Of a stretch of DNA of 64,000 bases, positions 37,078 through 48,352 are shown piece by piece. The translations under genes and the position numbers were made by a program. The stretch comes from Escherichia phage BEU50. Position 1 is the first letter of the stretch. The number at the start of each line of letters is the position of its first letter. Under the pieces are notes generated by a model. That model made no database searches and was not told where the DNA came from. It saw only the letters and a program-made list of their open reading frames with translations. The stretch is taken from the sequence record OM632671.1. One strand, 5' to 3'.

Positions 37078-39789
37078 ATGAAAGAATTTTACTTAACGGT
37101 TGAACAGATTGGTGATTCAATTTTTGAACGTTACATCGATTCTAATGGCCGTGAACGTACTCGTGAAGTAGAATATAAACCATCACTGTTTGCTCATTGT
37201 CCAGAAAGTCAGGCTACGAAATATTTCGATATCTACGGTAAACCGTGTACTCGTAAGTTGTTCGCTAATATGCGTGATGCCTCCCAATGGATTAAACGCA
37301 TGGAAGATATCGGACTTGAAGCACTTGGCATGGACGATTTCAAATTGGCGTATTTGTCTGACACTTATAACTATGAAATCAAATACGACCATACAAAAAT
37401 TCGTGTGGCTAACTTCGACATCGAAGTAACATCTCCGGATGGGTTCCCTGAGCCGTCACAAGCAAAACATCCTATTGATGCTATCACCCATTATGACTCA
37501 ATTGACGACAGGTTCTACGTATTTGATCTATTGAATTCTCCATATGGTAATGTGGAAGAATGGTCTATCGAAATTGCGGCTAAGCTTCAAGAACAAGGCG
37601 GTGATGAAGTTCCATCCGAAATTATCGACAAAATCGTTTATATGCCGTTCGATAACGAAAAAGAATTGTTGATGGAATATCTCAACTTCTGGCAACAGAA
37701 AACTCCTGTCATTTTGACTGGATGGAACGTTGAGTCATTTGATATTCCATATGTGTATAACCGAATCAAGAATATTTTTGGCGAATCTACTGCGAAACGT
37801 TTATCACCACATCGTAAAACTCGTGTTAAAGTTATCGAAAACATGTATGGTTCTCGTGAAATCATTACATTGTTCGGTATCTCTGTTCTTGATTACATTG
37901 ACCTTTACAAAAAATTCTCTTTTACCAATCAACCGTCGTATTCTCTGGATTACATTTCAGAATTTGAATTGAACGTTGGTAAACTGAAATATGACGGCCC
38001 TATTTCTAAGCTTCGTGAAAGCAATCACCAACGATATATTTCTTATAACATTATCGACGTGTATCGTGTATTGCAAATTGATGCTAAGCGTCAGTTCATC
38101 AACTTGAGCTTGGACATGGGTTATTATGCTAAGATACAGATTCAATCTGTGTTTAGCCCAATTAAAACATGGGATGCTATTATTTTTAATAGCCTTAAAG
38201 AGCAGAACAAGGTGATTCCACAAGGTCGTTCTCACCCAGTTCAACCTTACCCTGGTGCTTTTGTTAAGGAACCTATTCCAAATCGATACAAATATGTAAT
38301 GAGTTTCGACCTTACATCTCTGTATCCAAGTATTATTCGCCAAGTGAATATTAGCCCGGAAACAATAGCAGGAACGTTTAAAGTAGCTCCACTGCATGAT
38401 TATATTAACGCAATCGCTGAACGTCCTTCAGATGTGTACAGTTGCTCTCCTAACGGCATGATGTATTATAAAGACCGTGATGGTGTAGTTCCAACTGAAA
38501 TCACTAAGGTCTTTAATCAACGTAAAGAACATAAAGGTTACATGCTTGCAGCTCAACGTAATGGTGAAATAATTAAAGAGGCATTGCATAATCCTAATCT
38601 TTCTGTTGACGAACCATTAGATGTTGATTATCGTTTCGACTTCAGTGATGAGATTAAAGAAAAGATTAAAAAGTTGTCTGCTAAATCTCTTAATGAAATG
38701 TTGTTTAGAGCTCAACGTACTGAAGTTGCAGGTATGACTGCACAGATTAACCGTAAATTGCTCATCAACTCACTTTATGGTGCACTTGGCAACGTTTGGT
38801 TCCGTTATTATGATTTGCGTAATGCTACTGCAATCACAACATTTGGTCAAATGGCTTTACAGTGGATTGAACGTAAAGTTAATGAATATCTGAATGAAGT
38901 TTGTGGTACAGAAGGTGAAGCTTTCGTTCTATATGGTGATACAGACTCCATTTACGTATCTGCAGATAAAATTATTGATAAGGTTGGTGAATCTAAATTC
39001 CGTGATACCAACCATTGGGTAGACTTCTTAGATAAGTTCGCTCGTGAACGTATGGAACCTGCTATTGATAGAGGTTTCCGTGAAATGTGCGAATACATGA
39101 ACAATAAACAACACTTAATGTTCATGGACCGAGAAGCTATCGCTGGTCCTCCGCTCGGTTCTAAAGGTATTGGTGGATTTTGGACTGGTAAGAAACGTTA
39201 TGCATTAAACGTGTGGGATATGGAAGGAACCAGATACGCTGAACCTAAGCTTAAAATCATGGGTCTCGAAACACAGAAATCTTCGACTCCTAAAGCAGTA
39301 CAGAAAGCTCTTAAAGAATGTATTCGTCGTATGCTTCAAGAAGGTGAAGAATCATTACAAGAATATTTTAAAGAGTTTGAAAAAGAATTCCGTCAATTGA
39401 ATTATATTAGCATCGCGTCGGTATCTTCTGCGAATAACATTGCTAAATATGATGTAGGTGGATATCCAGGACCTAAATGCCCGTTCCATATTCGTGGAAT
39501 TCTGACGTATAACCGGGCTATCAAAGGTAATACCGATGCACCGCAAGTTGTAGAAGGTGAAAAAGTATATGTTCTGCCTTTACGTGAAGGAAACCCATTC
39601 GGTGATAAATGTATCGCATGGCCTTCTGGTACTGAAATCACAGATTTAATTAAAGACGATGTACTTCATTGGATGGACTACACTGTTCTCCTTGAGAAGA
39701 CATTTATTAAACCACTTGAAGGATTCACATCAGCAGCGAAACTCGATTACGAGAAGAAAGCATCTCTGTTCGATATGTTCGATTTTTGA
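37078..39789 (+). CDS. 43: DNA polymerase gp43 (family B)
   Basis: 903 aa; exonuclease and polymerase motifs (DIE, YGDTDS); sequence matches my recollection of RB69 gp43. Confidence 0.97.
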   Translation: MKEFYLTVEQIGDSIFERYIDSNGRERTREVEYKPSLFAHCPESQATKYFDIYGKPCTRKLFANMRDASQWIKRMEDIGLEALGMDDFKLAYLSDTYNYEIKYDHTKIRVANFDIEVTSPDGFPEPSQAKHPIDAITHYDSIDDRFYVFDLLNSPYGNVEEWSIEIAAKLQEQGGDEVPSEIIDKIVYMPFDNEKELLMEYLNFWQQKTPVILTGWNVESFDIPYVYNRIKNIFGESTAKRLSPHRKTRVKVIENMYGSREIITLFGISVLDYIDLYKKFSFTNQPSYSLDYISEFELNVGKLKYDGPISKLRESNHQRYISYNIIDVYRVLQIDAKRQFINLSLDMGYYAKIQIQSVFSPIKTWDAIIFNSLKEQNKVIPQGRSHPVQPYPGAFVKEPIPNRYKYVMSFDLTSLYPSIIRQVNISPETIAGTFKVAPLHDYINAIAERPSDVYSCSPNGMMYYKDRDGVVPTEITKVFNQRKEHKGYMLAAQRNGEIIKEALHNPNLSVDEPLDVDYRFDFSDEIKEKIKKLSAKSLNEMLFRAQRTEVAGMTAQINRKLLINSLYGALGNVWFRYYDLRNATAITTFGQMALQWIERKVNEYLNEVCGTEGEAFVLYGDTDSIYVSADKIIDKVGESKFRDTNHWVDFLDKFARERMEPAIDRGFREMCEYMNNKQHLMFMDREAIAGPPLGSKGIGGFWTGKKRYALNVWDMEGTRYAEPKLKIMGLETQKSSTPKAVQKALKECIRRMLQEGEESLQEYFKEFEKEFRQLNYISIASVSSANNIAKYDVGGYPGPKCPFHIRGILTYNRAIKGNTDAPQVVEGEKVYVLPLREGNPFGDKCIAWPSGTEITDLIKDDVLHWMDYTVLLEKTFIKPLEGFTSAAKLDYEKKASLFDMFDF

Positions 39790-39829
39790 TATAATGTCAT
39801 GGACGGTAAACTAATTAAATGAGAGAAAT

Positions 39830-40465
39830 ATGAAAACTACTCCTATTACTATCGCTATTGACGCAATCATAAAACAAGCTTCTTCTTTGGCCGCTATGGC
39901 CAAAGTAATTAGTCAAAACCCTGCTCGTTATAATGCTATTCTAGAAACTCTTCGACGCCCGGGACTTAGTAATTATGAAAGCCGAGTAATTATTACAGGT
40001 GTTGGTAAGAATGCTAATATTGCAACTAAAGCTTCTGAGACATTTGCTTCACTCGGTATCCCGAGTATGTACTTGAACACTGGGCATTATTCTCACGGTG
40101 ATGCAGGATTCATTGCGCCTAATGATGTGTTGATTCATATTAGTCGTTCTGGTAAAACTGAAGAAATGATAGGCGTGGCTAAGCATCTTAAAATGATTCG
40201 ACCGAACGTCAAACAGATTCTGTTGCATTGTAACCCAGACATTCCACAAGAAAATGAAGCCCTTTTTGATTACTCTTTCTGTACAGGCATCGCAGTAGAG
40301 GTTGATGAGAATTCTCTGGCTCCGACTATGTCCACTACATTGTTGTTAGCGCTTATCGATACGTTTGCTATCAACCTTTCGTCTGAACGTGGATTTACCT
40401 CTAATGACTTCCTTAAGTTCCACCCTGGTGGTGCACTAGGTGCCATGTTACGAGGCGAACAATGA
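39830..40465 (+). CDS. SIS-domain sugar-phosphate isomerase, KdsD/GutQ-like arabinose-5-phosphate isomerase without CBS domains
   Basis: ITGVGKNANIATKASETFASLGIPS, HGDAGFIAPNDVLIHISRSGKTEE, LAPTMSTT...FHPGGALG parallel the KdsD SIS-domain motifs. Confidence 0.75.
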   Translation: MKTTPITIAIDAIIKQASSLAAMAKVISQNPARYNAILETLRRPGLSNYESRVIITGVGKNANIATKASETFASLGIPSMYLNTGHYSHGDAGFIAPNDVLIHISRSGKTEEMIGVAKHLKMIRPNVKQILLHCNPDIPQENEALFDYSFCTGIAVEVDENSLAPTMSTTLLLALIDTFAINLSSERGFTSNDFLKFHPGGALGAMLRGEQ

Positions 40466-40605
40466 AAGCAATAACAATAGGACTTTTACTATTGATGCTT
40501 GTCATGACTATCTACTGGAGCTTAACGGCTCCAGTAATGATTCCAACACTTGTAATTGGATGGATTATGATTGGACTACAAGCAAAGTATGAATGCTTTA
40601 ACTAG
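40462..40605 (+). CDS. small membrane protein (47 aa)
   Basis: ATGA overlap with the isomerase stop; two hydrophobic segments; below ORF-track cutoff. Confidence 0.3.
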   Translation: MKAITIGLLLLMLVMTIYWSLTAPVMIPTLVIGWIMIGLQAKYECFN

Positions 40606-40646
40606 AATAGTGTACAATACTCCTACTTACCAATGAGGACCACAAC

Positions 40647-42332
40647 ATGAAAAAAGCTGTTATTCTTGGTGCTGGACTGGCAACTCGTTTATATCCAATT
40701 ACTCACCATATTCCTAAGGTGCTTGTTAACTATAAACAAGACACTATTCTGAGCAATTTGTATACAATTTATTCTGACCTAGGCGCAGATGAAATTATTG
40801 TAGTAGTTCATTCAAAATTTGCTGAAACTGTTCGAGCTTATTGTGAGCAAGAAGGGTTCAATGTGACTATTCGTACAGTTGATGAAGCGTATGGTTCTGC
40901 TTATGCTCTTGCTAAATTACACAAAGATTTAGACGGCCATAATGTAATTGTTAACTGGTGTGATATTATTCCGGATTTTGGTTCATGGTCTTGGAATGTT
41001 AACGCAATCTATGTTAAGGGTGACGAATGTCGATATAATTTCGACGGTGAAAATATCACTAACGTAGGTTCAACAGGTGGTAATGTTGTAGGAATTTATC
41101 AGTTCAAAGACTGGGAATTCTATATGGGTTCTACTGATGAGGAAATTCATGAATACTGCAAAGGACGTGATTTCGTAGAATTCCTTTACGGCAGCGCATT
41201 CAATAAATCAGAGCTTATGAATCTAATTGATTTAGGTGATATGCCTAAACTTGAAAAAGCTCATGAAGTTCGTGAACTTAATCGTAGTTTTAATGCAGTT
41301 GAAATTGGTGAAGAAACTGTAACTAAATTCGCATTAACCGAACAGGGCCGAGCTCTTCAGAAAGATGAGATTTCGTGGTATTTGAAAGTGAAATCAGATT
41401 CAGTCCCTCAGTTAGTTTCTGTTAATGAAAATAACTTTGAAATGGAACGCATTAAAGGTAAGCCGGCATTTGAATATATTAAATCCAAATCAAGTCTTGC
41501 TCGTCCACAAATTGTTGATGCAATTTTAGATGCACTGAAATTCAGCACAGACACTTATTTTGTAAGTCCTGAAACTGTTCGTCGTGATTTCACTAAAGAA
41601 TTCTATACGAAAGTTATTGATCGTTGTGAAAGCATTCAACCATTGATTGATTCATTTGGTAAAATCACACATGTGAACTACACTAAGATTGGACGTCTGA
41701 AGCCAATGCTGAAACAAGCTTTAGAACACCTTATTCGTTATCATAACCGTTCTCAGGGACAGTACTCTGTTATTCATGGTGACCCGAACTTCAGTAATAC
41801 TATGATTACTGATAACGGCGAAGTCAAATTTATCGACCCTCGTGGATATTTTGGCGAAACCAAGATTTACGGGCCAAAATTGTACGATGAAGCTAAAGTG
41901 CTTTACGCTGTTTCAGGTTATGATGAATTCAATGCTAATCCGACCTGGGGACAGTTTACTATTGATGAAACAACTTGTAATGTGACTATTAACATCAATC
42001 CATTAGTTTACAAATATGGAAAGATGAGTTCGTTTAACGAGTATCATCATTTGGCAGTGGCAATTATCTGGATTGCATTAGGTGGTTATTTCAAGAATAA
42101 TCCACTTAAAGCGGTAGCCGCATATTATAAAGGTATGGAACTTCTGACTAAGCAATTACGTAACATGGGCCGTGTACTTCAGGACGGCTCTATTAGTTAT
42201 GACGTAGCAGAACCTGTAACGGCTACTCTGATTACAAAAAATCCTGGTAAATGGGTACTAACTGATAAAGAAACTGGTGTTTCCTATCGTCCAATCGGTG
42301 GCGATATCACTCATCAATGGGAACGAATTTGA
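40647..42332 (+). CDS. bifunctional sugar-1-phosphate nucleotidyltransferase / sugar kinase
   Basis: N-terminal ILGAGLATRLYPIT NTP-transferase motif; C-terminal VIHGDPNFSNTMITDNGEVKFIDPRGYFG kinase catalytic loop. Confidence 0.7.
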   Translation: MKKAVILGAGLATRLYPITHHIPKVLVNYKQDTILSNLYTIYSDLGADEIIVVVHSKFAETVRAYCEQEGFNVTIRTVDEAYGSAYALAKLHKDLDGHNVIVNWCDIIPDFGSWSWNVNAIYVKGDECRYNFDGENITNVGSTGGNVVGIYQFKDWEFYMGSTDEEIHEYCKGRDFVEFLYGSAFNKSELMNLIDLGDMPKLEKAHEVRELNRSFNAVEIGEETVTKFALTEQGRALQKDEISWYLKVKSDSVPQLVSVNENNFEMERIKGKPAFEYIKSKSSLARPQIVDAILDALKFSTDTYFVSPETVRRDFTKEFYTKVIDRCESIQPLIDSFGKITHVNYTKIGRLKPMLKQALEHLIRYHNRSQGQYSVIHGDPNFSNTMITDNGEVKFIDPRGYFGETKIYGPKLYDEAKVLYAVSGYDEFNANPTWGQFTIDETTCNVTININPLVYKYGKMSSFNEYHHLAVAIIWIALGGYFKNNPLKAVAAYYKGMELLTKQLRNMGRVLQDGSISYDVAEPVTATLITKNPGKWVLTDKETGVSYRPIGGDITHQWERI

Positions 42333-43078
42333 TACATTATCTCTACAAAACTACTAATCTTATAAACGGTAAAGTTTATTTAGGAATGCACTCGGCTGAA
42401 GAAGCCGAGCCTTTAGATTTATATAAAGGTTCTGGTAAATTATATAAAAAGGCTGAAAGGAAATACGGTAAGGAAAATTTTCTTAAAGAAATCATTTCCT
42501 ACCATAGCTCAAGAGAAGAATTAAAAATAGCTGAAAAGGCTCTAATAACATTAGACATAGTTAAAGACCCGAATTATTACAATCTTAAAACTGGTGGCGA
42601 AGGTGGTTCTGACGGGTTATCCCAAAGGTCCAAGGATAAAATTTCTAAGGCAAATAAAGGACGTTTAGTTGGTGATAAAAACCCAAGATGGGGTAAAACT
42701 TTGTCAGCTGAATCTATAGCTAGGGGTAAAGAAAAGCACAGGAGGTATGGTAAACCTGCATTACATGGTCTAAAGATTAATGTAGATGGCAAATATTATG
42801 AATCCTGTCGGGAAGCGGCTAAAGATTTGGGTATATCTTCTGCCACGATTCAAAAGAGAGTAAAATCGCCTAAATATCTTAATTATCGATATCAGGACGA
42901 AAGCAAAAATGCTCACAAGTCTCAAAAATTTGTTAAAATAAACGAAAATTACTATGAATCTCTTAGGATAGCTGAAAAGAAAACGGGTATTCCTAGAAAG
43001 CGTATAGCTGATAATATTAAAAATTCTATTGAAGGATATTGCTATGAAACCATTACATCTTTGCGTGGACGTCGATGA
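42317..43078 (+). CDS. GIY-YIG homing endonuclease (Seg-like)
   Basis: IHYLYKTTNLINGKVYLGMH GIY-YIG motif; C-terminal NUMOD/HTH-like region; overlaps both neighbours. Confidence 0.75.
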   Translation: MGTNLIHYLYKTTNLINGKVYLGMHSAEEAEPLDLYKGSGKLYKKAERKYGKENFLKEIISYHSSREELKIAEKALITLDIVKDPNYYNLKTGGEGGSDGLSQRSKDKISKANKGRLVGDKNPRWGKTLSAESIARGKEKHRRYGKPALHGLKINVDGKYYESCREAAKDLGISSATIQKRVKSPKYLNYRYQDESKNAHKSQKFVKINENYYESLRIAEKKTGIPRKRIADNIKNSIEGYCYETITSLRGRR

Positions 43079-43418
43079 TTGTATAACAGAGTGGAATAAC
43101 AATCGTGATTACGTGAACTTCAAACCAGACGTCGAAATGGTGTCTGCCATTAATGCCCTGTATGAGGCAGGGCATACCATAACGCTTTACACTGCTCGCG
43201 GTATGAAGTCAGTAGGTCCTGGTCGTATAGCAATTGACATTCTCCCAAGTCTGATTCAGAACTTGGCAAACATTGGCTTGAAGTACCATAATTTGCTAAC
43301 ACATAAACCAGTATATGATTGGATTATCGACGACAAAGCTATGCGTCCTGACGAATTCAAAGCTCTTATGAATAAAGGCGAATTCGAAACATTTAAATCA
43401 TATAAACCGAATCTATAA
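43044..43418 (+). CDS. HAD-superfamily phosphatase
   Basis: DVDDCIT motif I, downstream T, K and IIDD motifs; ORF-track start 43029 is TTG. Confidence 0.6.
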   Translation: MKPLHLCVDVDDCITEWNNNRDYVNFKPDVEMVSAINALYEAGHTITLYTARGMKSVGPGRIAIDILPSLIQNLANIGLKYHNLLTHKPVYDWIIDDKAMRPDEFKALMNKGEFETFKSYKPNL

Positions 43419-43464
43419 TAATTTAAGTAAGACCTGCAAAAACCATCGCATCAATTAACGTGAG

Positions 43465-44637
43465 ATGCAAAAAAAAATGAATACTTTTAAAATCGGAACG
43501 AATTTTGATTTAGCTCTTCTTGATAAAATCGTAGAGCTCAATAAAACTTATCCTAATAGCTTGATAAACGAAGTATACGGCTCTACAAGAGAAATGGCTT
43601 TTGTAGCAGCCAGACCTGATTTTAGGCTTCCTGACGTTGACAAAAAGATGTTAGAAGATTACGTTAAACGTTGTAACGAATTAGGTATTTGCTTTAACTA
43701 TACACTCAACACGATAAATCCTGGTTCAAAAAGAGAACTAGTTGAGTGGAAGAAGAAAGCTATTCAGGATTATGTTCAGTATCTTTGGTCAATAGGCGTA
43801 TGGCGTATTACTATCGCTAACCCTGTTGTTATGGAAATTGTTCGTGAAGTCAATAAAGACATTGAGATTGAAGTTTCAACAATTCTACATGTCGATGCTG
43901 TAACTCAAATCAAATACTTGCATGACCAATATAATATCAAAAAGGTCTGCTGTGGAATTCATAAGAACCGTTCAGTTTCTTTCCTGAAGCGTGCAGCAGA
44001 GTTTTGCAATAAGAACAATATAATATTTGAAGTTCTTGTAAATGAGTTCTGTTCTAATGCTGGTAAAGGGTATACAACACATTGTAGCTATCGTGACTCT
44101 TGCTATATTTTCCATAGTACTGATGTTACAGCTGATGATGCTAAATCCTTAAACGGATATCCAATGCAGCACTGTATTAAAGCTCGTGATACAGACCCAT
44201 TTAACTGGTTGAGAACTCGTTTTGTTCGTCCTCAAGATTTGAAACTTTATAATGATATTGGTATCACTCAATTCAAAGTTTCAGGACGTACAGGTAGCAC
44301 AGACTACATTTTGAAAGTTCTTGAAGCATACGCTTCTGAAAAGTTTGAAGGTAATTTGTTAGAACTGTGGAAGCCTTTAGAGACTATTTTCACTCTTGAA
44401 AACGAAACTGAGTTTTCACATACGGTAAATATTGAAACCTCTTTGTTAGATGGCTTTTTAGAAAAAAGGTGGTTCAGACATCCAGATTTCGATTGTGCTA
44501 ATGAAATCTGCGGGACGACGTGTACATATTGTGAAAGATATTATAAACGTCAGTTATCTAAAAATGGGTTATCAGAAAATTCTATATCTATTATTGATAT
44601 AACTAACTCTGACGACGCTTTGAGGTACCCGGAATGA
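43465..44637 (+). CDS. hypothetical Cys-rich protein, possible Fe-S enzyme (390 aa)
   Basis: C-terminal CANEICGTTCTYC (CxxxCxxC within it) plus CSYRDSCYIF; family not assignable by eye. Confidence 0.5.
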   Translation: MQKKMNTFKIGTNFDLALLDKIVELNKTYPNSLINEVYGSTREMAFVAARPDFRLPDVDKKMLEDYVKRCNELGICFNYTLNTINPGSKRELVEWKKKAIQDYVQYLWSIGVWRITIANPVVMEIVREVNKDIEIEVSTILHVDAVTQIKYLHDQYNIKKVCCGIHKNRSVSFLKRAAEFCNKNNIIFEVLVNEFCSNAGKGYTTHCSYRDSCYIFHSTDVTADDAKSLNGYPMQHCIKARDTDPFNWLRTRFVRPQDLKLYNDIGITQFKVSGRTGSTDYILKVLEAYASEKFEGNLLELWKPLETIFTLENETEFSHTVNIETSLLDGFLEKRWFRHPDFDCANEICGTTCTYCERYYKRQLSKNGLSENSISIIDITNSDDALRYPE

Positions 44638-44873
44638 TTTCTAGAAAAACTTTTAATTATAAACTTAATGAAGAGATTTTGACTATGAAACTGAACACCA
44701 ACGAACAAATTCTTAAAAAGGCCCTTATGGGCCTGTTTGAAACCAAAGCGGCTAAAGTGATTAAAGAACCTATTCAATTGGAATACTATGCTGATGCATT
44801 TCTTCATAGTGTTCTTGGAAGTATCGATGCTGAAGCTTTACGTTATATCAACATTGCCAAGAAATTCAAATAA
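44634..44873 (+). CDS. hypothetical protein (79 aa)
   Basis: ATGA overlap. Confidence 0.45.
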   Translation: MISRKTFNYKLNEEILTMKLNTNEQILKKALMGLFETKAAKVIKEPIQLEYYADAFLHSVLGSIDAEALRYINIAKKFK

Positions 44874-44896
44874 GCTTTACGAATTGAGTATATAAT
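44873..44896 (+). promoter_or_regulatory. middle-promoter-like element upstream of the gene 42 homologue
   Basis: AGCTTTA box, 11 nt spacer, TATAAT 44891-44896. Confidence 0.35.
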
Positions 44897-44915
44897 AAAT
44901 TGTATTGAGGTAAAC

Positions 44916-45632
44916 ATGGGAAAACATAACACAATGAAATATATCAAAGCCGCAGATTTTCAAGCCGCATTTAAAGCAGTCAATCGTGAAATTTTAGAAA
45001 ACCCGGAATTCGTAACTGATTCTCGTATTGGGCGTTGTAATGAAATTGGGTCTATGACAGTAGTTGTTGACACTCCATCATCATTCAAAATGACCGACCC
45101 ACGTATTAACCGCATCTCTTATGAATATGCCGAAGACTTCTGGAAGTTTATGATTTCTGGTGGTACCAACGCAGAAGAAGCGTTTAAGGCATATCCTAAT
45201 GTCGCTAAATTTATTTCTAAACCAAAATCAGATGTTTTGCCGGCGAACTTCAACACTTTCTATGGTCCTCGCATTGCGGCCCAATTACCAGCTCTTCTAA
45301 AAGAACTTAAAGAGAAGCCTAACTCTCGAAGAGTTGTGTTCCAAATTCTAGAAAGTTCTGATCAGGCTTTGCTTGATTCAGACGAAACGCTTGAATATCC
45401 ATGTACTGACTCAGTGACTTATTATATTCGTGATGGTAAGCTTTATACCCACTGTCATATGCGTTCTCAGAACTGTGCTGTTGTTATGCAGTTGGATTTT
45501 TATCTCCAAGGAAAATTACTTCATTATATCGCTAACGAATGTGGTGTAGAAGTTGGTGATTATACTCATACCATGGTAAGTGCCCATGTGTTTGAACGTG
45601 ATTTTGATTATGTTAAAGGATTCCTTGACTAA
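44916..45632 (+). CDS. 42: thymidylate-synthase-family deoxypyrimidylate hydroxymethylase (gene 42-like, divergent)
   Basis: PNSRRVVFQI, CTDSVTYYIRDGKLYTHCHMRSQN and SAHVFERDF parallel T4 gp42/ThyA catalytic regions, with low overall similarity to T4 gp42 as I recall it. Confidence 0.65.
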   Translation: MGKHNTMKYIKAADFQAAFKAVNREILENPEFVTDSRIGRCNEIGSMTVVVDTPSSFKMTDPRINRISYEYAEDFWKFMISGGTNAEEAFKAYPNVAKFISKPKSDVLPANFNTFYGPRIAAQLPALLKELKEKPNSRRVVFQILESSDQALLDSDETLEYPCTDSVTYYIRDGKLYTHCHMRSQNCAVVMQLDFYLQGKLLHYIANECGVEVGDYTHTMVSAHVFERDFDYVKGFLD

Positions 45633-46531
45633 TGGCTATTTTCCGCGTACCTATTTTGAGTATGCGGTCTTATGAAACTGGACAGTATGCCATCCTTAAG
45701 GATGGCAACTTCCAACTTCATTTGCACCGTGCTAATCCAGGTGATGTGATTACATATCCACGTAATGCATCCGATATTAAAGAATGTGAACGTCTTTTCC
45801 CAGAATTTAAGTTTGTTCCATTATGGTATAAAGATAACGCGTATAACACTCGTAAATATTTCTGGTCTGAAAATGAATTTGTGGTTGATTCATTAATCGC
45901 TTATTATGATTGTGATTTTCTAATCACAGATATCACTGGATACGACGGCGCTTTTGATGTAGAATTCAATTTCAATATCACTGCAGACCCTAATAAACCA
46001 CGTTTTTATATTGACGAATTCTTAAAAACCGACATGTTGTCGGTTAATCGTTCAATCCAAACAACTGTGTTGAATAAACGTCAAAAGGAAGTGCTGGTTA
46101 ACGCAGGTGCAGATGGTAATAAGATTATCATAACCCAGAAAGTTATACGTCCTTCCATCATGCAGCGTCTTGTAGGTGATTTAGCTCCTATTCATCTAGA
46201 TGGTATTTTTCATCCATTTCGAATTAGTGACCCGTGCTATCGGTTTGAACAAGTGGTTGAATGTGCAATTCAATTAGGCCAACCGCTTTATATAACCGAT
46301 CCAAATAATAGCTTCGACAGAAATAAGTATCCTGAAGAAGCGCTGATTCGAATTTTTAAACCAACTAAAACTGAGTACTATCAAATTCTTAAAGGACGTC
46401 CGAAGATTCAATATTTCGAAAATCCTGAAGAAGTATTCCATCCAGGTCTTGGTGAGTTCATCTACTTTAATGCTTTAATTTCTTCACCGTATAATATACC
46501 TAAATACGAAGATGTCGTAATCGAGGAATAA
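45632..46531 (+). CDS. hypothetical protein in the beta-glucosyltransferase position (299 aa); candidate DNA sugar transferase
   Basis: No recognisable motif; placement between gene 42 and uvsX only. Confidence 0.45.
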   Translation: MAIFRVPILSMRSYETGQYAILKDGNFQLHLHRANPGDVITYPRNASDIKECERLFPEFKFVPLWYKDNAYNTRKYFWSENEFVVDSLIAYYDCDFLITDITGYDGAFDVEFNFNITADPNKPRFYIDEFLKTDMLSVNRSIQTTVLNKRQKEVLVNAGADGNKIIITQKVIRPSIMQRLVGDLAPIHLDGIFHPFRISDPCYRFEQVVECAIQLGQPLYITDPNNSFDRNKYPEEALIRIFKPTKTEYYQILKGRPKIQYFENPEEVFHPGLGEFIYFNALISSPYNIPKYEDVVIEE

Positions 46532-46532
46532 A

Positions 46533-47081
46533 ATGGCTAAAATTATTTTAGTAGATGGCCCGGATAATGCTGGTAAAACAACTTTCATTAATGACATAAT
46601 GGAAATTAGTGAAAGATATGTAAAGATTGATTTCCCTAAACGAACAGTTGATGGACGTTTCGATGTTAAGTCTCGAAATGAAGTTGGCTGTTTCGAAACG
46701 ATGTTGAATTATTTAGACCCTACTAAGATTTATCTGTTAGACCGTGGATATATTAGTAACTGGGTTTACGGACGTATTCGACAAGATGCGGACTCTGTTC
46801 TTGACGTTTATGAACAGGATTATGTTCGTCTTTGCCAAAACCATGATGTGTTCACAATTATTTTAACACGTAACGAAATGACTGAAAGTTTTGAAGACGA
46901 CCTTATTACTTTGTCTTCATTCGGTTTTAATACAGTCATTTCACATTTTGAAGAGTTTGCAATTCATAACAAAATCCAAACGTATCAATTACTTAATCAT
47001 GATGGTGCTAACAAAGTTATAGGATTTAATGCAAGCGAACGTAATGTTTTGATTACAGAAATCATCAAATGGGCTCGTTAA
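46533..47081 (+). CDS. P-loop nucleotide kinase (thymidylate-kinase-like)
   Basis: Walker A VDGPDNAGKTT and DRGY (DRY-like) motif. Confidence 0.6.
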   Translation: MAKIILVDGPDNAGKTTFINDIMEISERYVKIDFPKRTVDGRFDVKSRNEVGCFETMLNYLDPTKIYLLDRGYISNWVYGRIRQDADSVLDVYEQDYVRLCQNHDVFTIILTRNEMTESFEDDLITLSSFGFNTVISHFEEFAIHNKIQTYQLLNHDGANKVIGFNASERNVLITEIIKWAR

Positions 47082-47101
47082 GAGCCATTTAAAGTTTTAA
47101 A

Positions 47102-47126
47102 TGCTGTATAACCCTTAGTATATAAT
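47102..47126 (+). promoter_or_regulatory. middle-promoter-like element upstream of uvsX
   Basis: TGCTGTA box, 12 nt, TATAAT 47121-47126. Confidence 0.35.
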
Positions 47127-47179
47127 CATCTTATCTTTTAAACATGAGTAAAATATAATGATGCCTATGGAAAAATACA

Positions 47180-48352
47180 ATGTCTGATTTAAAATCTCGT
47201 CTGATTAAAGCTTCTACTTCTAAAATGACTGCAGACTTGACTAAGTCTAAGCTGTTTAATAATCGTGATGAAGTCCCTACTCGTATTCCGATGTTGAATA
47301 TTGCATTAGGTGGTGCACTGAATGCAGGGTTGCAATCAGGCTTAACTATTTTTGCTGCTCCTTCTAAACACTTTAAAACGTTGTTTGGGCTGACTATGGT
47401 TGCAGCGTATATGAAGAAATATAAAGATGCAATCTGTTTGTTTTATGACTCAGAATTCGGTGCTTCAGAATCTTATTTTCGTTCAATGGGTGTTGATTTA
47501 GACCGTGTAGTTCATACTCCGATTCAATCTGTCGAACAACTTAAAGTCGATATGACTAATCAGCTTGACGCTATTGAACGCGGTGATAAAGTTATTATCT
47601 TTATTGACTCGATTGGTAATACTGCATCTAAGAAAGAAACCGAAGATGCATTGAACGAGAAAGTTGTAGGTGATATGTCTCGTGCTAAGGCACTTAAATC
47701 TCTGTTCCGCATTGTGACTCCTTATCTGACTATTAAAGATATTCCATGTGTTGCAATTAACCATACAGCAATGGAAATCGGCGGATTGTATCCTAAAGAG
47801 ATTATGGGCGGTGGTACAGGTATTCTTTATTCTGCCAACACGGTATTTTTTATCTCTAAACGTCAGGTTAAAGAAGGTACAGAATTGACCGGTTATGACT
47901 TCACGTTGAAAGCAGAAAAATCTCGCACAGTTAAAGAGAAATCTACTTTCCCGATCACGGTTAATTTTGATGGCGGTATTGACCCATTCAGTGGCTTGTT
48001 AGAAATGGCAACTGAAATTGGTTTTGTAGTTAAGCCTAAAGCCGGTTGGTATGCTCGCGAATTCCTTGACGAAGAAACAGGTGAAATGATTCGTGAAGAA
48101 AAATCATGGCGTGCTAAAGCTACTGATTGTGTAGAATTCTGGGGACCTTTGTTTAAACACAAACCTTTCCGAGATGCAATTGAAACTAAATATAAACTAG
48201 GTGCTATCTCTTCTATTAAAGAAGTTGATGACGCTGTTAATGACCTTATTAATTGCAAAGCAACAACTAAAGTTCCGGTTAAAACTTCTGATGCTCCGTC
48301 TGCAGCAGATATAGAAAACGACCTTGACGAAATGGAAGATTTCGATGAATAA
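47180..48352 (+). CDS. uvsX: RecA-like recombinase UvsX
   Basis: 390 aa; RecA-fold Walker motifs; acidic C-terminus. Confidence 0.95.
   Translation: MSDLKSRLIKASTSKMTADLTKSKLFNNRDEVPTRIPMLNIALGGALNAGLQSGLTIFAAPSKHFKTLFGLTMVAAYMKKYKDAICLFYDSEFGASESYFRSMGVDLDRVVHTPIQSVEQLKVDMTNQLDAIERGDKVIIFIDSIGNTASKKETEDALNEKVVGDMSRAKALKSLFRIVTPYLTIKDIPCVAINHTAMEIGGLYPKEIMGGGTGILYSANTVFFISKRQVKEGTELTGYDFTLKAEKSRTVKEKSTFPITVNFDGGIDPFSGLLEMATEIGFVVKPKAGWYAREFLDEETGEMIREEKSWRAKATDCVEFWGPLFKHKPFRDAIETKYKLGAISSIKEVDDAVNDLINCKATTKVPVKTSDAPSAADIENDLDEMEDFDE

What the first reader, a model, noticed from the sequence alone, without database searches (positions are those of the whole stretch)
39830..44873. Candidate activated-pentose (NDP-arabinose) biosynthesis module between DNA polymerase and gene 42
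Where T4 carries only small genes between 43 and 42, this genome has about 5 kb encoding a KdsD-like SIS arabinose-5-phosphate isomerase without CBS domains (39830..40465), a fusion of a sugar-1-phosphate nucleotidyltransferase domain with a kinase-like domain (40647..42332), a small HAD phosphatase (43044..43418) and a 390-aa Cys-rich protein (43465..44637). Together these would convert host ribulose-5-phosphate to arabinose-5-phosphate, free arabinose, arabinose-1-phosphate and finally an NDP-arabinose donor. E. coli does not make such a donor, so a phage with arabinosylated hmC DNA must supply it. Arabinosyl-hmC has been reported chemically for RB69, but I am not aware of the supply pathway being assigned; every enzymatic role here is inferred from motifs.
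Basis: partly seen in the sequence, partly recalled or inferred. Interest (0 to 1): 0.9.

Follow-up and report, generated by a model that had tools for sequence, protein, structure and literature searches.

The report
Phage arabinosyl-hydroxycytosine DNA modification cluster
This is the already published gene cluster that RB69-type phages use to make an activated arabinose sugar and attach it to hydroxylated cytosine in their DNA; the one unexplained gene in it looks like an oxygen-independent way to make that hydroxylated cytosine.

Summary
Window 39830-44873 carries a SIS isomerase, a 561-aa nucleotidyltransferase/kinase fusion, a small HAD phosphatase and a 390-aa Cys-rich protein.

The window is a Mosigvirus, 98% identical to RB69 over this stretch. 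The sugar-supply idea is right but published: Thomas 2018 proposed it, Lee 2026 analysed RB69, and Lee cites He 2026 for the biochemistry in phage HY126.

Three details are wrong or dated:
- The base is 5-hydroxycytosine, not hmC.
- The "gene 42" neighbour is a flavin- and O2-dependent 5-hydroxy-dCMP synthase.
- The route is A5P, then arabinose-1,5-bisphosphate, then arabinose-1-P, then UDP-arabinofuranose. It does not pass through free arabinose.

The 390-aa protein is not a sugar enzyme. It is a U32-family protein, like RlhA, TrhP and UbiU/V, which act in prephenate-dependent, O2-independent hydroxylation. In related phages it sits beside a chorismate mutase or DAHP synthase. In metagenomic phages, whose few genome-collection matches come from anaerobes, it sits next to the glycosyltransferase and kinase where RB69 has its ThyA-type hydroxylase gene. 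I propose it is an anaerobic cytosine hydroxylase. This is inferred, not shown, and I found no report of it in the literature I could read.

The parts
39830..40465 (+). Single-domain SIS arabinose-5-phosphate isomerase (RB69 gp55 counterpart), without CBS domains
   Evidence: Pfam SIS 1e-10. NCBIfam KpsF/GutQ 2e-32 and KdsD 7e-31, both below the full-length cut-offs because the CBS pair is absent. PDB 3etn 2.6e-25 and 2xhz 3.5e-19. The KdsD positions K59, H88, E111, E152 and H193 align with identical residues K60, H89, E112, E157 and H198. PHROG 5670 'arabinose 5-phosphate isomerase' 4e-116.
40462..40605 (+). 47-aa hydrophobic small ORF (RB69 ORF054c counterpart); function unknown, probably not part of the pathway
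   Evidence: Overlaps the SIS stop codon. PHROG 3610, unknown function, 7e-27. Conserved next to the cluster in LC53 (annotated as transmembrane), in JS98 and in most T4-like loci.
40647..42332 (+). 561-aa bifunctional enzyme (RB69 gp52:53, analogous to HY126 AfhE). N-terminal sugar-1-P nucleotidyltransferase (about aa 1-210) and C-terminal APH/choline-kinase-like kinase (about aa 211-561)
   Evidence: Pfam NTP_transferase 8.5e-10 at aa 3-99; kinase-like matches below threshold at aa 308-409. The sequence shows GAGLATRL...PK, HGDPNFSN and FIDPRG motifs. Homologue P0208 passes the Pfam APH cut-off. It is one ORF here, matching the resequencing of RB69. Activities were reported for HY126 AfhE, as cited by Lee 2026.
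42317..43078 (+). Free-standing GIY-YIG/NUMOD homing endonuclease, an intruder and not part of the pathway
   Evidence: Pfam I-TevI_DNA-bd 3.6e-8, NUMOD1, NUMOD3 and SegE_GIY-YIG. PHROG 314 homing endonuclease 3e-43. Window 42329-43052 is absent from RB69, where 25 bp stand instead. Present in 3 of the 30 best-matching records listed.
43044..43418 (+). Small HAD-type phosphatase (RB69 gp51, analogous to HY126 AfhF); removes the 5-phosphate of arabinose-1,5-bisphosphate
   Evidence: 118 of 121 aligned residues identical to PDB 9iqw; 1xpj 1e-10. NCBIfam EcbF/BcbF capsule-biosynthesis phosphatase 1.8e-13. The role is given in Lee 2026, citing He 2026. The first codons come from the endonuclease insertion.
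43465..44637 (+). 390-aa U32-family protein (RB69 gp50); proposed O2-independent, prephenate-dependent pyrimidine C5 hydroxylase
   Evidence: Pfam Peptidase_U32 7.5e-11. AlphaFold2 pLDDT 93.5; best Foldseek match is the U32 protein 5d88 at 2.7e-7. Nine Cys are invariant in 121 sequences: C162, C196, C207, C213, C237 and the C-terminal C344, C349, C353, C356. hhalign is best to RlhA, E 1e-5. It neighbours chorismate mutase or DAHP synthase in relatives.
44634..44873 (+). 79-aa ORF (RB69 ORF049c) overlapping the U32 stop codon; function unknown, not a chorismate mutase
   Evidence: No Pfam or PDB match. No similarity to the LC53 chorismate mutase, E 16. In some genera it stands between the U32 gene and the chorismate mutase. 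It is variable, and truncated forms of 47-58 aa exist.
44916..45632 (+).
   Evidence: PDB 9iqc/9ir2, E 8e-161 over all 238 residues. 98.7% identical to RB69 gp48. Catalytic Cys kept; read without the gap the aligner inserted, the block gives D169N and N177D in E. coli ThyA numbering (my reading). Lee 2026 shows O2-derived hydroxylation and a bound flavin.
45632..46531 (+). First DNA arabinosyltransferase candidate (RB69 gp46:47), a single ORF here
   Evidence: 299-aa ORF. PHROG 3891 6e-156. Assignment from Lee 2026. Homologues stand next to the U32 gene in 24 of 36 distant loci.
46533..47081 (+). Thymidylate-kinase-like nucleotide kinase (RB69 gp45)
   Evidence: PHROG 761 thymidylate kinase 4e-45. 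Weak dTMP-kinase P-loop match. Lee 2026 Table 1.

Best explanation
The region is the sugar-supply half of the RB69-type 5-arabinosyl-hydroxycytosine DNA hypermodification cluster, in a Mosigvirus about 98% identical to RB69.

Proposed flow, following the literature:
1. The SIS isomerase turns host ribulose-5-P into D-arabinose-5-P.
2. The kinase half of the 561-aa fusion makes arabinofuranose-1,5-bisphosphate.
3. The small HAD phosphatase removes the 5-phosphate.
4. The nucleotidyltransferase half makes UDP-arabinofuranose.
5. The glycosyltransferase downstream (45632-46531) is proposed to use this donor to arabinosylate 5-hydroxycytosine; Lee 2026 leaves open whether this first transfer happens on DNA or on the mononucleotide.

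The 5-hydroxycytosine comes from dCMP through the ThyA homologue at 44916-45632, which uses flavin and O2. The logic copies ADP-heptose synthesis: SIS isomerase, kinase, HAD bisphosphate phosphatase, nucleotidyltransferase, with the kinase and transferase fused.

The homing endonuclease between the fusion gene and the HAD gene is a selfish insertion.

The 390-aa U32 protein is not part of sugar activation. I infer it is a second, O2-independent hydroxylase that uses prephenate as the oxygen donor and carries Fe-S clusters. That would let the phage make 5-hydroxycytosine when its facultatively anaerobic host grows without oxygen. This would parallel the host's own paired systems, UbiI/H/F with UbiU/V and TrhO with TrhP.

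Basis of each part: steps 1-4 rest on published work on near-identical proteins, as reported at second hand by Lee 2026. The U32 role is my inference from family membership and gene neighbourhood.
For: Identity of the cluster:
- 98.1% DNA identity to RB69 and 99.1% to NRG-P0074, with the same gene order.
- The HAD protein is 118/121 identical to PDB 9iqw, and the ThyA homologue matches 9iqc at 8e-161.
- Published assignments: Thomas 2018 and Lee 2026 with He 2026.

Independent support for the four-step sugar route:
- The SIS protein scores best against KpsF, KdsD and GutQ, and the five KdsD positions I checked align with identical residues.
- Distant homologues of the fusion protein are single polypeptides of 890-955 aa that carry HAD, SIS, nucleotidyltransferase and the kinase-like region together, so the same parts occur fused.

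Support for the U32 role:
- Pfam and fold place it in the U32 family.
- Every characterised U32 protein acts in O2-independent, prephenate-dependent hydroxylation. RlhA, which makes 5-hydroxycytidine, needs Cys in the U32 motif and in a C-terminal cluster. The phage family has both sets invariant and aligns best with RlhA.
- A genuine chorismate mutase (Pfam CM_2 1.7e-11) lies between the U32 gene and the ThyA homologue in 54 phage records from many genera.
- In 36 distant loci (35 distinct places; L006 and L007 carry the same protein), the U32 gene adjoins a chorismate mutase, a DAHP synthase or a fusion of the two in 13. It adjoins a homologue of the first glycosyltransferase in 24 and an AfhE-like gene in 17. 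None has a 5-hydroxy-dCMP-synthase-type ThyA within 10 kb.
- All 8 hits in the bacterial genome collection come from genomes or MAGs named for taxa that I know as anaerobes or as coming from anoxic habitats (my attribution): Romboutsia, Lachnospiraceae, Erysipelotrichales, Tannerella, Phocaeicola and others.
- Among isolated phages, the 10 host genera listed for the 221 U32-carrying records and all 60 records shown belong to Enterobacterales or Shewanella. The 57 Acinetobacter and 20 Rhizobium phage records with the ThyA homologue do not appear among them.
Against: Sugar route:
- No activity was measured for this window's proteins.
- I could not read He 2026 or Mahler 2025, so the step order rests on Lee 2026's account. 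Lee's own Table 1 still lists the older route through free arabinose.
- The kinase domain is below Pfam thresholds in this protein.

U32 role:
- No U32 protein has ever been reconstituted as a hydroxylase in vitro.
- The Cys spacing here, C-x10-C-x5-C-x23-C, departs from the usual C-x6-C-x15-C-x3/4-C.
- This window has no chorismate mutase. The best match to a phage chorismate-mutase HMM has E 0.72, so the phage would depend on host PheA and TyrA.
- E. coli phages of the JS98 group carry the ThyA homologue without a U32 gene.
- Absence of a ThyA-type hydroxylase in the distant phages was tested only within 10 kb of the U32 gene.
- Lee 2026 labels gp50 'sugar or heterocycle reductase'.
Confidence: 0.85

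Rival explanations
1. The U32 protein works on the sugar or the heterocycle as a reductase or other tailoring enzyme within the arabinosylation pathway. This is the label given in Lee 2026 Table 1. It would not be a hydroxylase.
For: Lee 2026 Table 1 names RB69 gp50 'sugar or heterocycle reductase'. The fold is a TIM-barrel-like domain that also resembles flavin and aldolase barrels such as methylenetetrahydrofolate reductase. The gene always sits among sugar-activation and glycosyltransferase genes.
Against: No text or experiment supports the label. The published route to UDP-arabinofuranose needs no reduction. Acinetobacter phages and JS98 have the sugar-activation and glycosyltransferase genes but no U32 gene, and DLP3 and Maestro are reported to carry arabinosylated 5-hydroxycytosine. 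The recurring link to chorismate mutase and DAHP synthase has no place in a sugar-reduction step.
Confidence: 0.12
2. The U32 protein hydroxylates a host or phage RNA (rRNA or tRNA), or supports anaerobic ubiquinone synthesis. It would be a host-takeover or auxiliary metabolic gene unrelated to DNA modification.
For: All characterised relatives act on rRNA, tRNA or ubiquinone precursors, not on deoxynucleotides. No substrate evidence exists for the phage protein.
Against: In T4-like phages the gene is fixed between the sugar genes and the ThyA-type hydroxylase. In distant phages it sits between the glycosyltransferase and kinase genes, or next to dCMP deaminase, dNK, NT5C and the replicative polymerase. 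E. coli already encodes RlhA, TrhP and UbiU/V.
Confidence: 0.12
3. The U32 protein is a peptidase or collagenase-like protease, as most database records annotate it.
For: Public annotations read 'peptidase', 'collagenase-like protease' or 'putative protease'.
Against: These names are inherited from the family label. The cited work links every studied U32 member (RlhA, TrhP, UbiU, UbiV) to hydroxylation and none to proteolysis, although Kimura 2017 did not fully exclude an indirect peptidase role for RlhA. The invariant Cys clusters and the nucleotide-metabolism neighbourhoods do not suggest a protease.
Confidence: 0.04
4. The SIS, fusion and HAD genes serve host-surface chemistry, such as capsule or LPS sugar synthesis, rather than DNA modification.
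For: The closest named families are capsule-related: KpsF and the EcbF/BcbF capsule-biosynthesis phosphatase. PDB 9iqw is deposited as 'capsule biosynthesis protein'.
Against: RB69 DNA carries arabinose on cytosine. The cluster is syntenic in arabinosylating phages of several genera, and UDP-arabinofuranose is the donor used by the phage DNA glycosyltransferases in vitro. The genes lie inside the DNA replication and nucleotide module.
Confidence: 0.03

Closest known systems
RB69 gp45-gp55 cytosine arabinosylation cluster and the HY126 Afh system (Thomas 2018; Lee 2026; He 2026 as cited there)
   Same: Same genes in the same order at about 98% DNA identity. The HAD and ThyA-homologue proteins are near-identical to the crystallised proteins in 9iqw and 9iqc.
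   Different: This phage has a GIY-YIG homing endonuclease inserted between the fusion gene and the HAD gene. The RB69 GenBank frameshifts that split ORF053/052 and ORF047/046 are absent here.
ADP-heptose biosynthesis (GmhA, HldE, GmhB); from my own knowledge of that pathway
   Same: Same logic and same folds: a SIS isomerase, an anomeric kinase that gives a bisphosphate, a HAD phosphatase that removes the distal phosphate, then a nucleotidyltransferase. The kinase and transferase are fused in one protein. Lee 2026 notes the structural match of the HAD protein to the heptose bisphosphate phosphatase.
   Different: The substrate is a pentose instead of a heptose. The SIS protein belongs to the KdsD/KpsF branch, and no GmhA-family model appears among its matches. 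The kinase is APH/choline-kinase-like, not ribokinase-like. The product feeds DNA glycosylation.
KdsD / GutQ / KpsF arabinose-5-phosphate isomerases, and the single-domain enzyme of Bacteroides fragilis (PDB 3etn)
   Same: SIS fold, best profile matches to these families, and the checked active-site positions aligned with identical residues.
   Different: No tandem CBS domains, as in 3etn. The product is diverted to a nucleotide sugar rather than to Kdo.
U32-family hydroxylation factors RlhA (ho5C2501 of 23S rRNA), TrhP (ho5U34 of tRNA) and UbiU/UbiV (anaerobic ubiquinone)
   Same: U32 domain and fold; conserved Cys in the U32 motif plus a C-terminal Cys cluster, as in RlhA; genomic link to prephenate supply. 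Paired with an O2-dependent flavin enzyme for the same product, like UbiI/H/F with UbiU/V and TrhO with TrhP.
   Different: Only 16-20% identical to the E. coli proteins. Different Cys spacing. A compact 360-390-aa architecture found almost only in phages. The presumed substrate is a deoxynucleotide or DNA. No activity has been shown.
T4 hydroxymethylcytosine glucosylation (gp42, alpha- and beta-glucosyltransferases)
   Same: Same genome position and overall scheme: a ThyA-family enzyme modifies dCMP, and sugar is later added to the base by phage glycosyltransferases.
   Different: T4 uses host UDP-glucose and needs no donor pathway. Here the base is 5-hydroxycytosine with a direct ether link, and the phage makes its own donor.

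Membership tests
Arabinose-5-phosphate isomerase (KdsD/GutQ/KpsF) | SIS domain with best profile match to the KpsF/GutQ/KdsD models rather than to GmhA or other SIS enzymes | tested here: met
   TIGR00393 KpsF 2e-32, KdsD 7e-31, GutQ 9e-23. No GmhA-family model appears in the list. The scores are below the full-length cut-offs because only the SIS half is present. PDB 3etn, 5uqi and 2xhz match.
Arabinose-5-phosphate isomerase (KdsD/GutQ/KpsF) | Active-site residues of E. coli KdsD (K59, H88, E111, E152, H193; the list is from my own knowledge) | tested here: met
   They align with identical residues K60, H89, E112, E157 and H198, which are invariant across KdsD and three phage sequences.
Arabinose-5-phosphate isomerase (KdsD/GutQ/KpsF) | C-terminal tandem CBS domains | tested here: not met
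   The protein ends after the SIS domain at residue 211. The single-domain enzyme 3etn shows that this feature is not required for the fold.
Arabinose-5-phosphate isomerase (KdsD/GutQ/KpsF) | Ru5P to A5P isomerase activity | not testable with these tools
   Proposed for RB69 gp55 from structure comparisons only.
AfhE-type bifunctional A5P 1-kinase / UDP-arabinose pyrophosphorylase | One polypeptide with an N-terminal sugar-1-P nucleotidyltransferase domain | tested here: met
   Single 561-aa ORF. Pfam NTP_transferase 8.5e-10 at aa 3-99. G-x-G-x-x-R...K motif present.
AfhE-type bifunctional A5P 1-kinase / UDP-arabinose pyrophosphorylase | C-terminal protein-kinase-like (APH/choline kinase) domain with catalytic-loop and metal-binding motifs | tested here: inconclusive
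   Only sub-threshold Pfam matches in this protein, E 0.002-0.009. HGDPNFSN and IDPRG motifs are present. Homologue P0208 passes the APH cut-off. Lee 2026 reports fold matches to 3ham and 6hwl.
AfhE-type bifunctional A5P 1-kinase / UDP-arabinose pyrophosphorylase | Measured kinase and pyrophosphorylase activities | not testable with these tools
   Reported for HY126 AfhE by He 2026, as cited in Lee 2026. I could not read that paper.
AfhF-type HAD phosphatase | Near-identity to the crystallised protein, and the HAD motif I aspartates | tested here: met
   118/121 identical to 9iqw. DVDDCIT aligns with DLDGTLT of 1xpj. TIGR01689 1.8e-13.
U32 family (prephenate-dependent hydroxylation factors) | Peptidase_U32 domain and fold | tested here: met
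   PF01136 7.5e-11, above the cut-off. Model pLDDT 93.5. Best PDB match is the U32 protein 5d88, E 2.7e-7, TM 0.71 on the target.
U32 family (prephenate-dependent hydroxylation factors) | Four conserved Cys in a C-x6-C-x15-C-x3/4-C arrangement that binds a 4Fe-4S cluster | tested here: inconclusive
   Invariant C196, C207, C213 and C237 are spaced x10, x5, x23, and a second invariant set is C344-x4-C-x3-C-x2-C356. C213 aligns with UbiU/RlhA C176. The Cys aligned with C169 is C196 in MAFFT and C207 in hhalign. Metal binding was not tested.
U32 family (prephenate-dependent hydroxylation factors) | Dependence on prephenate | not testable with these tools
   Indirect support only. A chorismate mutase or DAHP synthase lies next to the gene in 54 phage records and in 13 of 36 distant loci. 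No chorismate mutase is present in this window.
5-hydroxy-dCMP synthase (ThyA homologue, RB69 gp48 type) | Catalytic Cys plus the D169N and N177D signature (E. coli ThyA numbering; Lee 2026) | tested here: met
   98.7% identical to RB69 gp48 and 8e-161 to 9iqc. Cys146 is conserved. The tool's alignment gaps this block; read without that gap it gives N at position 169 and D at position 177 (my reading).

The most novel reading that the evidence does not exclude
The U32 protein (43465-44637) and its relatives are the first DNA-directed members of the U32 family. They would be prephenate-dependent, O2-independent pyrimidine C5 hydroxylases that supply 5-hydroxycytosine (or a related base) for glycosylated phage DNA. 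In enterobacterial phages the U32 enzyme would back up the O2-dependent ThyA-type enzyme under anoxia. In large metagenomic phages, whose few genome-collection matches come from anaerobes, it would replace that enzyme outright, often with a phage-encoded chorismate mutase or DAHP synthase to raise prephenate supply. I found no report of this in the searchable literature. I could not read He 2026 or Mahler 2025.
Probability: 0.55. Interest if true: 0.8.

Novelty: already known. Interest (0 to 1): 0.45.

Why it matters
The finding as written re-derives a published pathway, so it adds little. It does confirm that the cluster can be recognised from sequence alone, and it exposes widespread misannotation. 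In public records the fusion protein is called 'dCMP deaminase', the HAD phosphatase 'phosphoheptose isomerase' and the U32 protein 'peptidase'.

What could matter is the leftover gene. The known 5-hydroxy-dCMP synthase takes its oxygen from O2, yet these phages infect gut bacteria. A prephenate-dependent U32 hydroxylase would explain how the modification is made without oxygen. It would extend U32 chemistry from RNA and quinones to DNA precursors. It would point to a large unexplored set of hypermodified genomes in phages associated with anaerobes. It might also give a small soluble substrate for an enzyme family that has never been reconstituted in vitro.

Tried and rejected
- The 79-aa ORF after the U32 gene as a diverged chorismate mutase: rejected. 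BLASTP against the LC53 enzyme gives E 16. It has no Pfam or PDB match. In some phages it coexists with a real chorismate mutase.
- A chorismate mutase elsewhere in the window: none. The best match to a phage chorismate-mutase HMM has E 0.72.
- Promoter and terminator scans of 39500-47300: at chance level, 26 found against 27.4 expected and 4 against 3.7.
- Sequence and profile searches of the U32 family against PDB: nothing, or a spurious BIM1 match.
- The afdb50 fold library was not available.
- The ThyA-fold gene in distant locus L030: it keeps D169 and N177 and the long C-terminus, so it looks like an ordinary thymidylate synthase and not a 5-hydroxy-dCMP synthase.
- The DAHP-synthase-like neighbour as a Kdo-8-P synthase acting on arabinose-5-P: rejected. 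DAHP synthase models score 2.6e-70 against 2.9e-17 for Kdo-8-P synthase, and in several loci the gene is fused to a chorismate mutase.
- He 2026 and Mahler 2025 are not held, so I could not read them.
- I did not check whole distant contigs for a ThyA-type hydroxylase, because only 10 kb on each side of the U32 gene could be fetched.

Full report
**What is there**

Window 39830-47081 is a run of ten tightly packed + strand genes just downstream of the DNA polymerase gene. In order they are:
- a 211-aa SIS protein (39830-40465);
- a 47-aa hydrophobic ORF (40462-40605);
- a 561-aa protein (40647-42332);
- a 253-aa GIY-YIG/NUMOD homing endonuclease (42317-43078);
- a 124-aa HAD-like protein (43044-43418);
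- a 390-aa Cys-rich protein (43465-44637);
- a 79-aa ORF (44634-44873);
- a 238-aa ThyA homologue (44916-45632);
- a 299-aa glycosyltransferase candidate (45632-46531);
- a 182-aa kinase-like protein (46533-47081).

Base composition shows nothing unusual. Promoter and terminator scans are at chance level.

**Whose genome this is**

The 5.1-kb stretch matches 192 phage records. It is 99.1% identical to Escherichia phage NRG-P0074 and 98.1% identical to RB69 over 86% of its length. The missing 14% is the endonuclease: window 42329-43052 replaces 25 bp of RB69, exactly at the junction between the stop of the 561-aa gene and the start of the HAD gene. The 561-aa and 299-aa genes are single ORFs here. 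The RB69 GenBank record splits both, which Thomas 2018 and Lee 2026 attribute to sequencing errors.

**The sugar-supply reading is right but already published**

- Thomas 2018 (PMC6024577) found arabinose on RB69 DNA and proposed ORF055c and ORF53_52c as UDP-arabinose synthesis genes.
- Lee 2026 (PMC13326640) showed that the modified base is mono- and di-arabinosylated 5-hydroxycytosine, not hmC. RB69 gp48 makes 5-hydroxy-dCMP from dCMP with oxygen from O2 and a bound flavin.
- Citing He 2026 on phage HY126, Lee 2026 gives the donor route as follows. Ribulose-5-P is converted to arabinose-5-P by gp55. The kinase half of gp52:53 (AfhE) makes arabinose-1,5-bisphosphate. The HAD enzyme gp51 (AfhF) makes arabinose-1-P. 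The nucleotidyltransferase half makes UDP-arabinofuranose.
- UDP-arabinofuranose is the donor that worked with phage DNA glycosyltransferases in vitro.

The window's HAD protein is 118/121 identical to PDB 9iqw. Its ThyA homologue matches 9iqc at 8e-161 over its full length. I take these entries to be the He 2026 structures.

**My own checks of the sugar route**

- The SIS protein scores best against KpsF, KdsD and GutQ, and no GmhA-family model appears among its matches. The five KdsD positions I checked align with identical residues, and it lacks CBS domains. It resembles the single-domain enzyme 3etn.
- The fusion protein has a clear nucleotidyltransferase N-terminus. Its kinase-like C-terminus is below Pfam thresholds here, but the APH family is recorded for homologues, and P0208 passes the cut-off in my own scan.
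- A further argument comes from gene fusion. Distant homologues of 890-955 aa carry HAD, SIS, nucleotidyltransferase and the kinase-like region in one polypeptide. The same set of parts therefore occurs fused, which is the pattern expected of enzymes in one pathway.
- The scheme mirrors ADP-heptose synthesis. That comparison is from my own knowledge of the pathway.

- The route it gave runs through free arabinose, which is the older version.
- It takes the base to be hmC.
- It calls the downstream gene 42.
- It places the 390-aa protein in the sugar module.

**The 390-aa protein**

Membership in the U32 family is solid:
- Pfam Peptidase_U32 scores 7.5e-11.
- A confident AlphaFold2 model (pLDDT 93.5) has the U32 protein 5d88 as its best PDB match.

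Lee 2026 only labels gp50 'sugar or heterocycle reductase' in a table. In its discussion it says that the two other known pyrimidine hydroxylation pathways use no homologue of the 5-hydroxy-dCMP synthase, and it does not link gp50 to them.

What is known about characterised U32 proteins:
- RlhA makes 5-hydroxycytidine 2501 of 23S rRNA.
- TrhP makes ho5U34 of tRNA.
- UbiU and UbiV carry out the hydroxylations of anaerobic ubiquinone synthesis.
- All of them are linked to prephenate and Fe-S clusters and work without O2. Prephenate has been shown to be the oxygen donor for UbiU/V.
- RlhA needs two Cys in the U32 motif and Cys in a C-terminal cluster.

How the phage family compares:
- C196, C207, C213 and C237 in the core, and C344, C349, C353 and C356 at the C-terminus, are invariant in 121 sequences that go down to 46% identity.
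- C213 aligns with C176 of RlhA and UbiU.
- Of the three E. coli U32 proteins compared by hhalign, the phage profile aligns best with RlhA, E 1e-5.

**Gene neighbourhood of the U32 gene**

In T4-like phages:
- In Serratia phage LC53, the gene between the U32 gene and the ThyA homologue is a true chorismate mutase, Pfam CM_2 1.7e-11.
- tblastn finds that chorismate mutase in 54 phage records, from Klebsiella, Serratia, Yersinia, Enterobacter, Proteus, Erwinia, Edwardsiella and Shewanella phages and others. In the records I checked it lies in that same position.

In more distant relatives:
- The U32 family has many metagenomic members at 40-58% identity, on phage-like contigs of up to 466 kb.
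- I analysed 36 such loci (35 distinct places, because L006 and L007 carry the same protein) with iterative searches.
- The U32 gene lies beside a chorismate mutase, a DAHP synthase or a fusion of both in 13 loci.
- It lies beside a homologue of the first arabinosyltransferase in 24 loci, an AfhE-like gene in 17 and a SIS gene in 10.
- Only one locus has a ThyA-fold gene within 10 kb, and that one looks like an ordinary thymidylate synthase.
- Locus L041 reads: glycosyltransferase, SIS, AfhE-like, kinase, DAHP synthase::chorismate mutase, HAD-like, U32.
- Locus L032 reads: kinase, glycosyltransferase, U32, second glycosyltransferase, DNA polymerase III alpha.

In these phages the U32 gene therefore sits next to the glycosyltransferase and kinase, where RB69 has its ThyA-type hydroxylase gene.

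**Host oxygen biology**

- Among isolated phages, 221 records carry the U32 gene, all at 80% identity or more. The 10 host genera listed and all 60 records shown belong to Enterobacterales or Shewanella.
- The ThyA homologue occurs in 373 records. These include 57 Acinetobacter and 20 Rhizobium phage records.
- The cluster of Acinetobacter phage Maestro has no U32 gene or chorismate mutase.
- A scan of one genome per bacterial species found eight relatives. All are in genomes or MAGs named for taxa that I know as anaerobes or as coming from anoxic habitats (my attribution; I did not verify oxygen status): Erysipelotrichales, Bacillota, Lachnospiraceae, Romboutsia (twice), BRC1, Tannerella and a Phocaeicola faecalis isolate.
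- Several of these carry the same U32, chorismate mutase, glycosyltransferase and AfhE-like arrangement.

**Interpretation of the U32 gene**

I infer that the U32 protein is an O2-independent, prephenate-dependent hydroxylase that yields the 5-hydroxypyrimidine needed for glycosylation. In phages of facultative anaerobes it would be paired with the O2-dependent flavin enzyme. The hosts themselves pair UbiI/H/F with UbiU/V and TrhO with TrhP in the same way.

The limits of this inference are as follows:
- No U32 enzyme has been reconstituted in vitro.
- The Cys spacing here is atypical.
- This window has no chorismate mutase, so it would depend on host PheA and TyrA.
- JS98-type coliphages lack the U32 gene.
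- The distant contigs were examined only within 10 kb of the gene.
- The substrate (dCMP, another nucleotide, or DNA) is unknown.
- Four full-text searches found no paper that connects U32 proteins with phage DNA modification. He 2026 and Mahler 2025 could not be read.

**Verdict**

As stated, the finding is not novel. The most interesting residue is the U32 gene. I put the anaerobic-hydroxylase reading at about 0.55 probability. It is directly testable with anaerobic infections, prephenate-deficient hosts and isotope labelling.

Noticed in passing
window 42317-43078 (insertion 42329-43052): A free-standing GIY-YIG/NUMOD homing endonuclease sits exactly between the stop of the 561-aa gene and the start of the HAD gene. 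It replaces 25 bp of RB69 and supplies the first codons of the HAD ORF. It is present in only 3 of the 30 best-matching records listed.
   Followed up: partly
window 40462-40605: A 47-aa hydrophobic ORF overlaps the SIS stop codon. It is conserved as PHROG 3610 and is present beside the cluster in LC53, in JS98 and in most T4-like loci, even where the SIS gene is missing (JS98). Function unknown.
   Followed up: partly
window 44634-44873: A 79-aa ORF overlaps the U32 stop codon. It is much more variable than the U32 gene among Mosigviruses, and truncated forms of 47-58 aa exist. In Yersinia and Pectobacterium phages and in one unnamed T4-like contig (L028) it precedes the chorismate mutase. 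In LC53 its N-terminal residues appear to be fused to the chorismate mutase.
   Followed up: partly
L001 (PQ480333.1) and L002 (NC_004928.1) annotations: Public annotations are misleading. The nucleotidyltransferase/kinase fusion is called 'dCMP deaminase', the HAD phosphatase 'phosphoheptose isomerase', the U32 protein 'peptidase', and in LC53 the glycosyltransferase is called 'RNA polymerase binding protein'.
   Followed up: yes
proteins P0236, P0240, P0241, P0243, P0244, P0247, P0261 (homologues of window 40647-42332): Proteins of about 890-955 aa fuse HAD, SIS, nucleotidyltransferase and the kinase-like region in one chain. One comes from a eukaryotic transcriptome set. This suggests that the same pentose-activation pathway exists outside phages.
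   Followed up: partly
L067 3044-7137 (Phocaeicola faecalis scaffold); L006 5135-9098; L007: A different U32 neighbourhood: GP88-family protein, then a methyltransferase (fused to a guanylate kinase in L067), then an unknown protein of about 265 aa, then U32. In L006 and L007 it lies next to NT5C, dNK, a radical SAM protein and a second faint U32. It might mark another hydroxyl-derived base modification, for example a methoxy group. That is speculation.
   Followed up: no
L012 (phage JS98) 5476-10589: JS98 carries the fusion, HAD, kinase, ThyA-homologue and glycosyltransferase genes, but no SIS gene and no U32 gene. It presumably relies on host KdsD/GutQ for arabinose-5-P. It has Imm at the position just after the polymerase gene.
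   Followed up: partly
L004 7447-9086; L005 9145-9891: On very large metagenomic phage contigs with DNA polymerase III alpha, the U32 gene directly follows a dCMP deaminase (L004) or precedes a stand-alone DAHP synthase (L005). Uracil-DNA-glycosylase-like and thymidylate-kinase-like genes lie nearby.
   Followed up: partly
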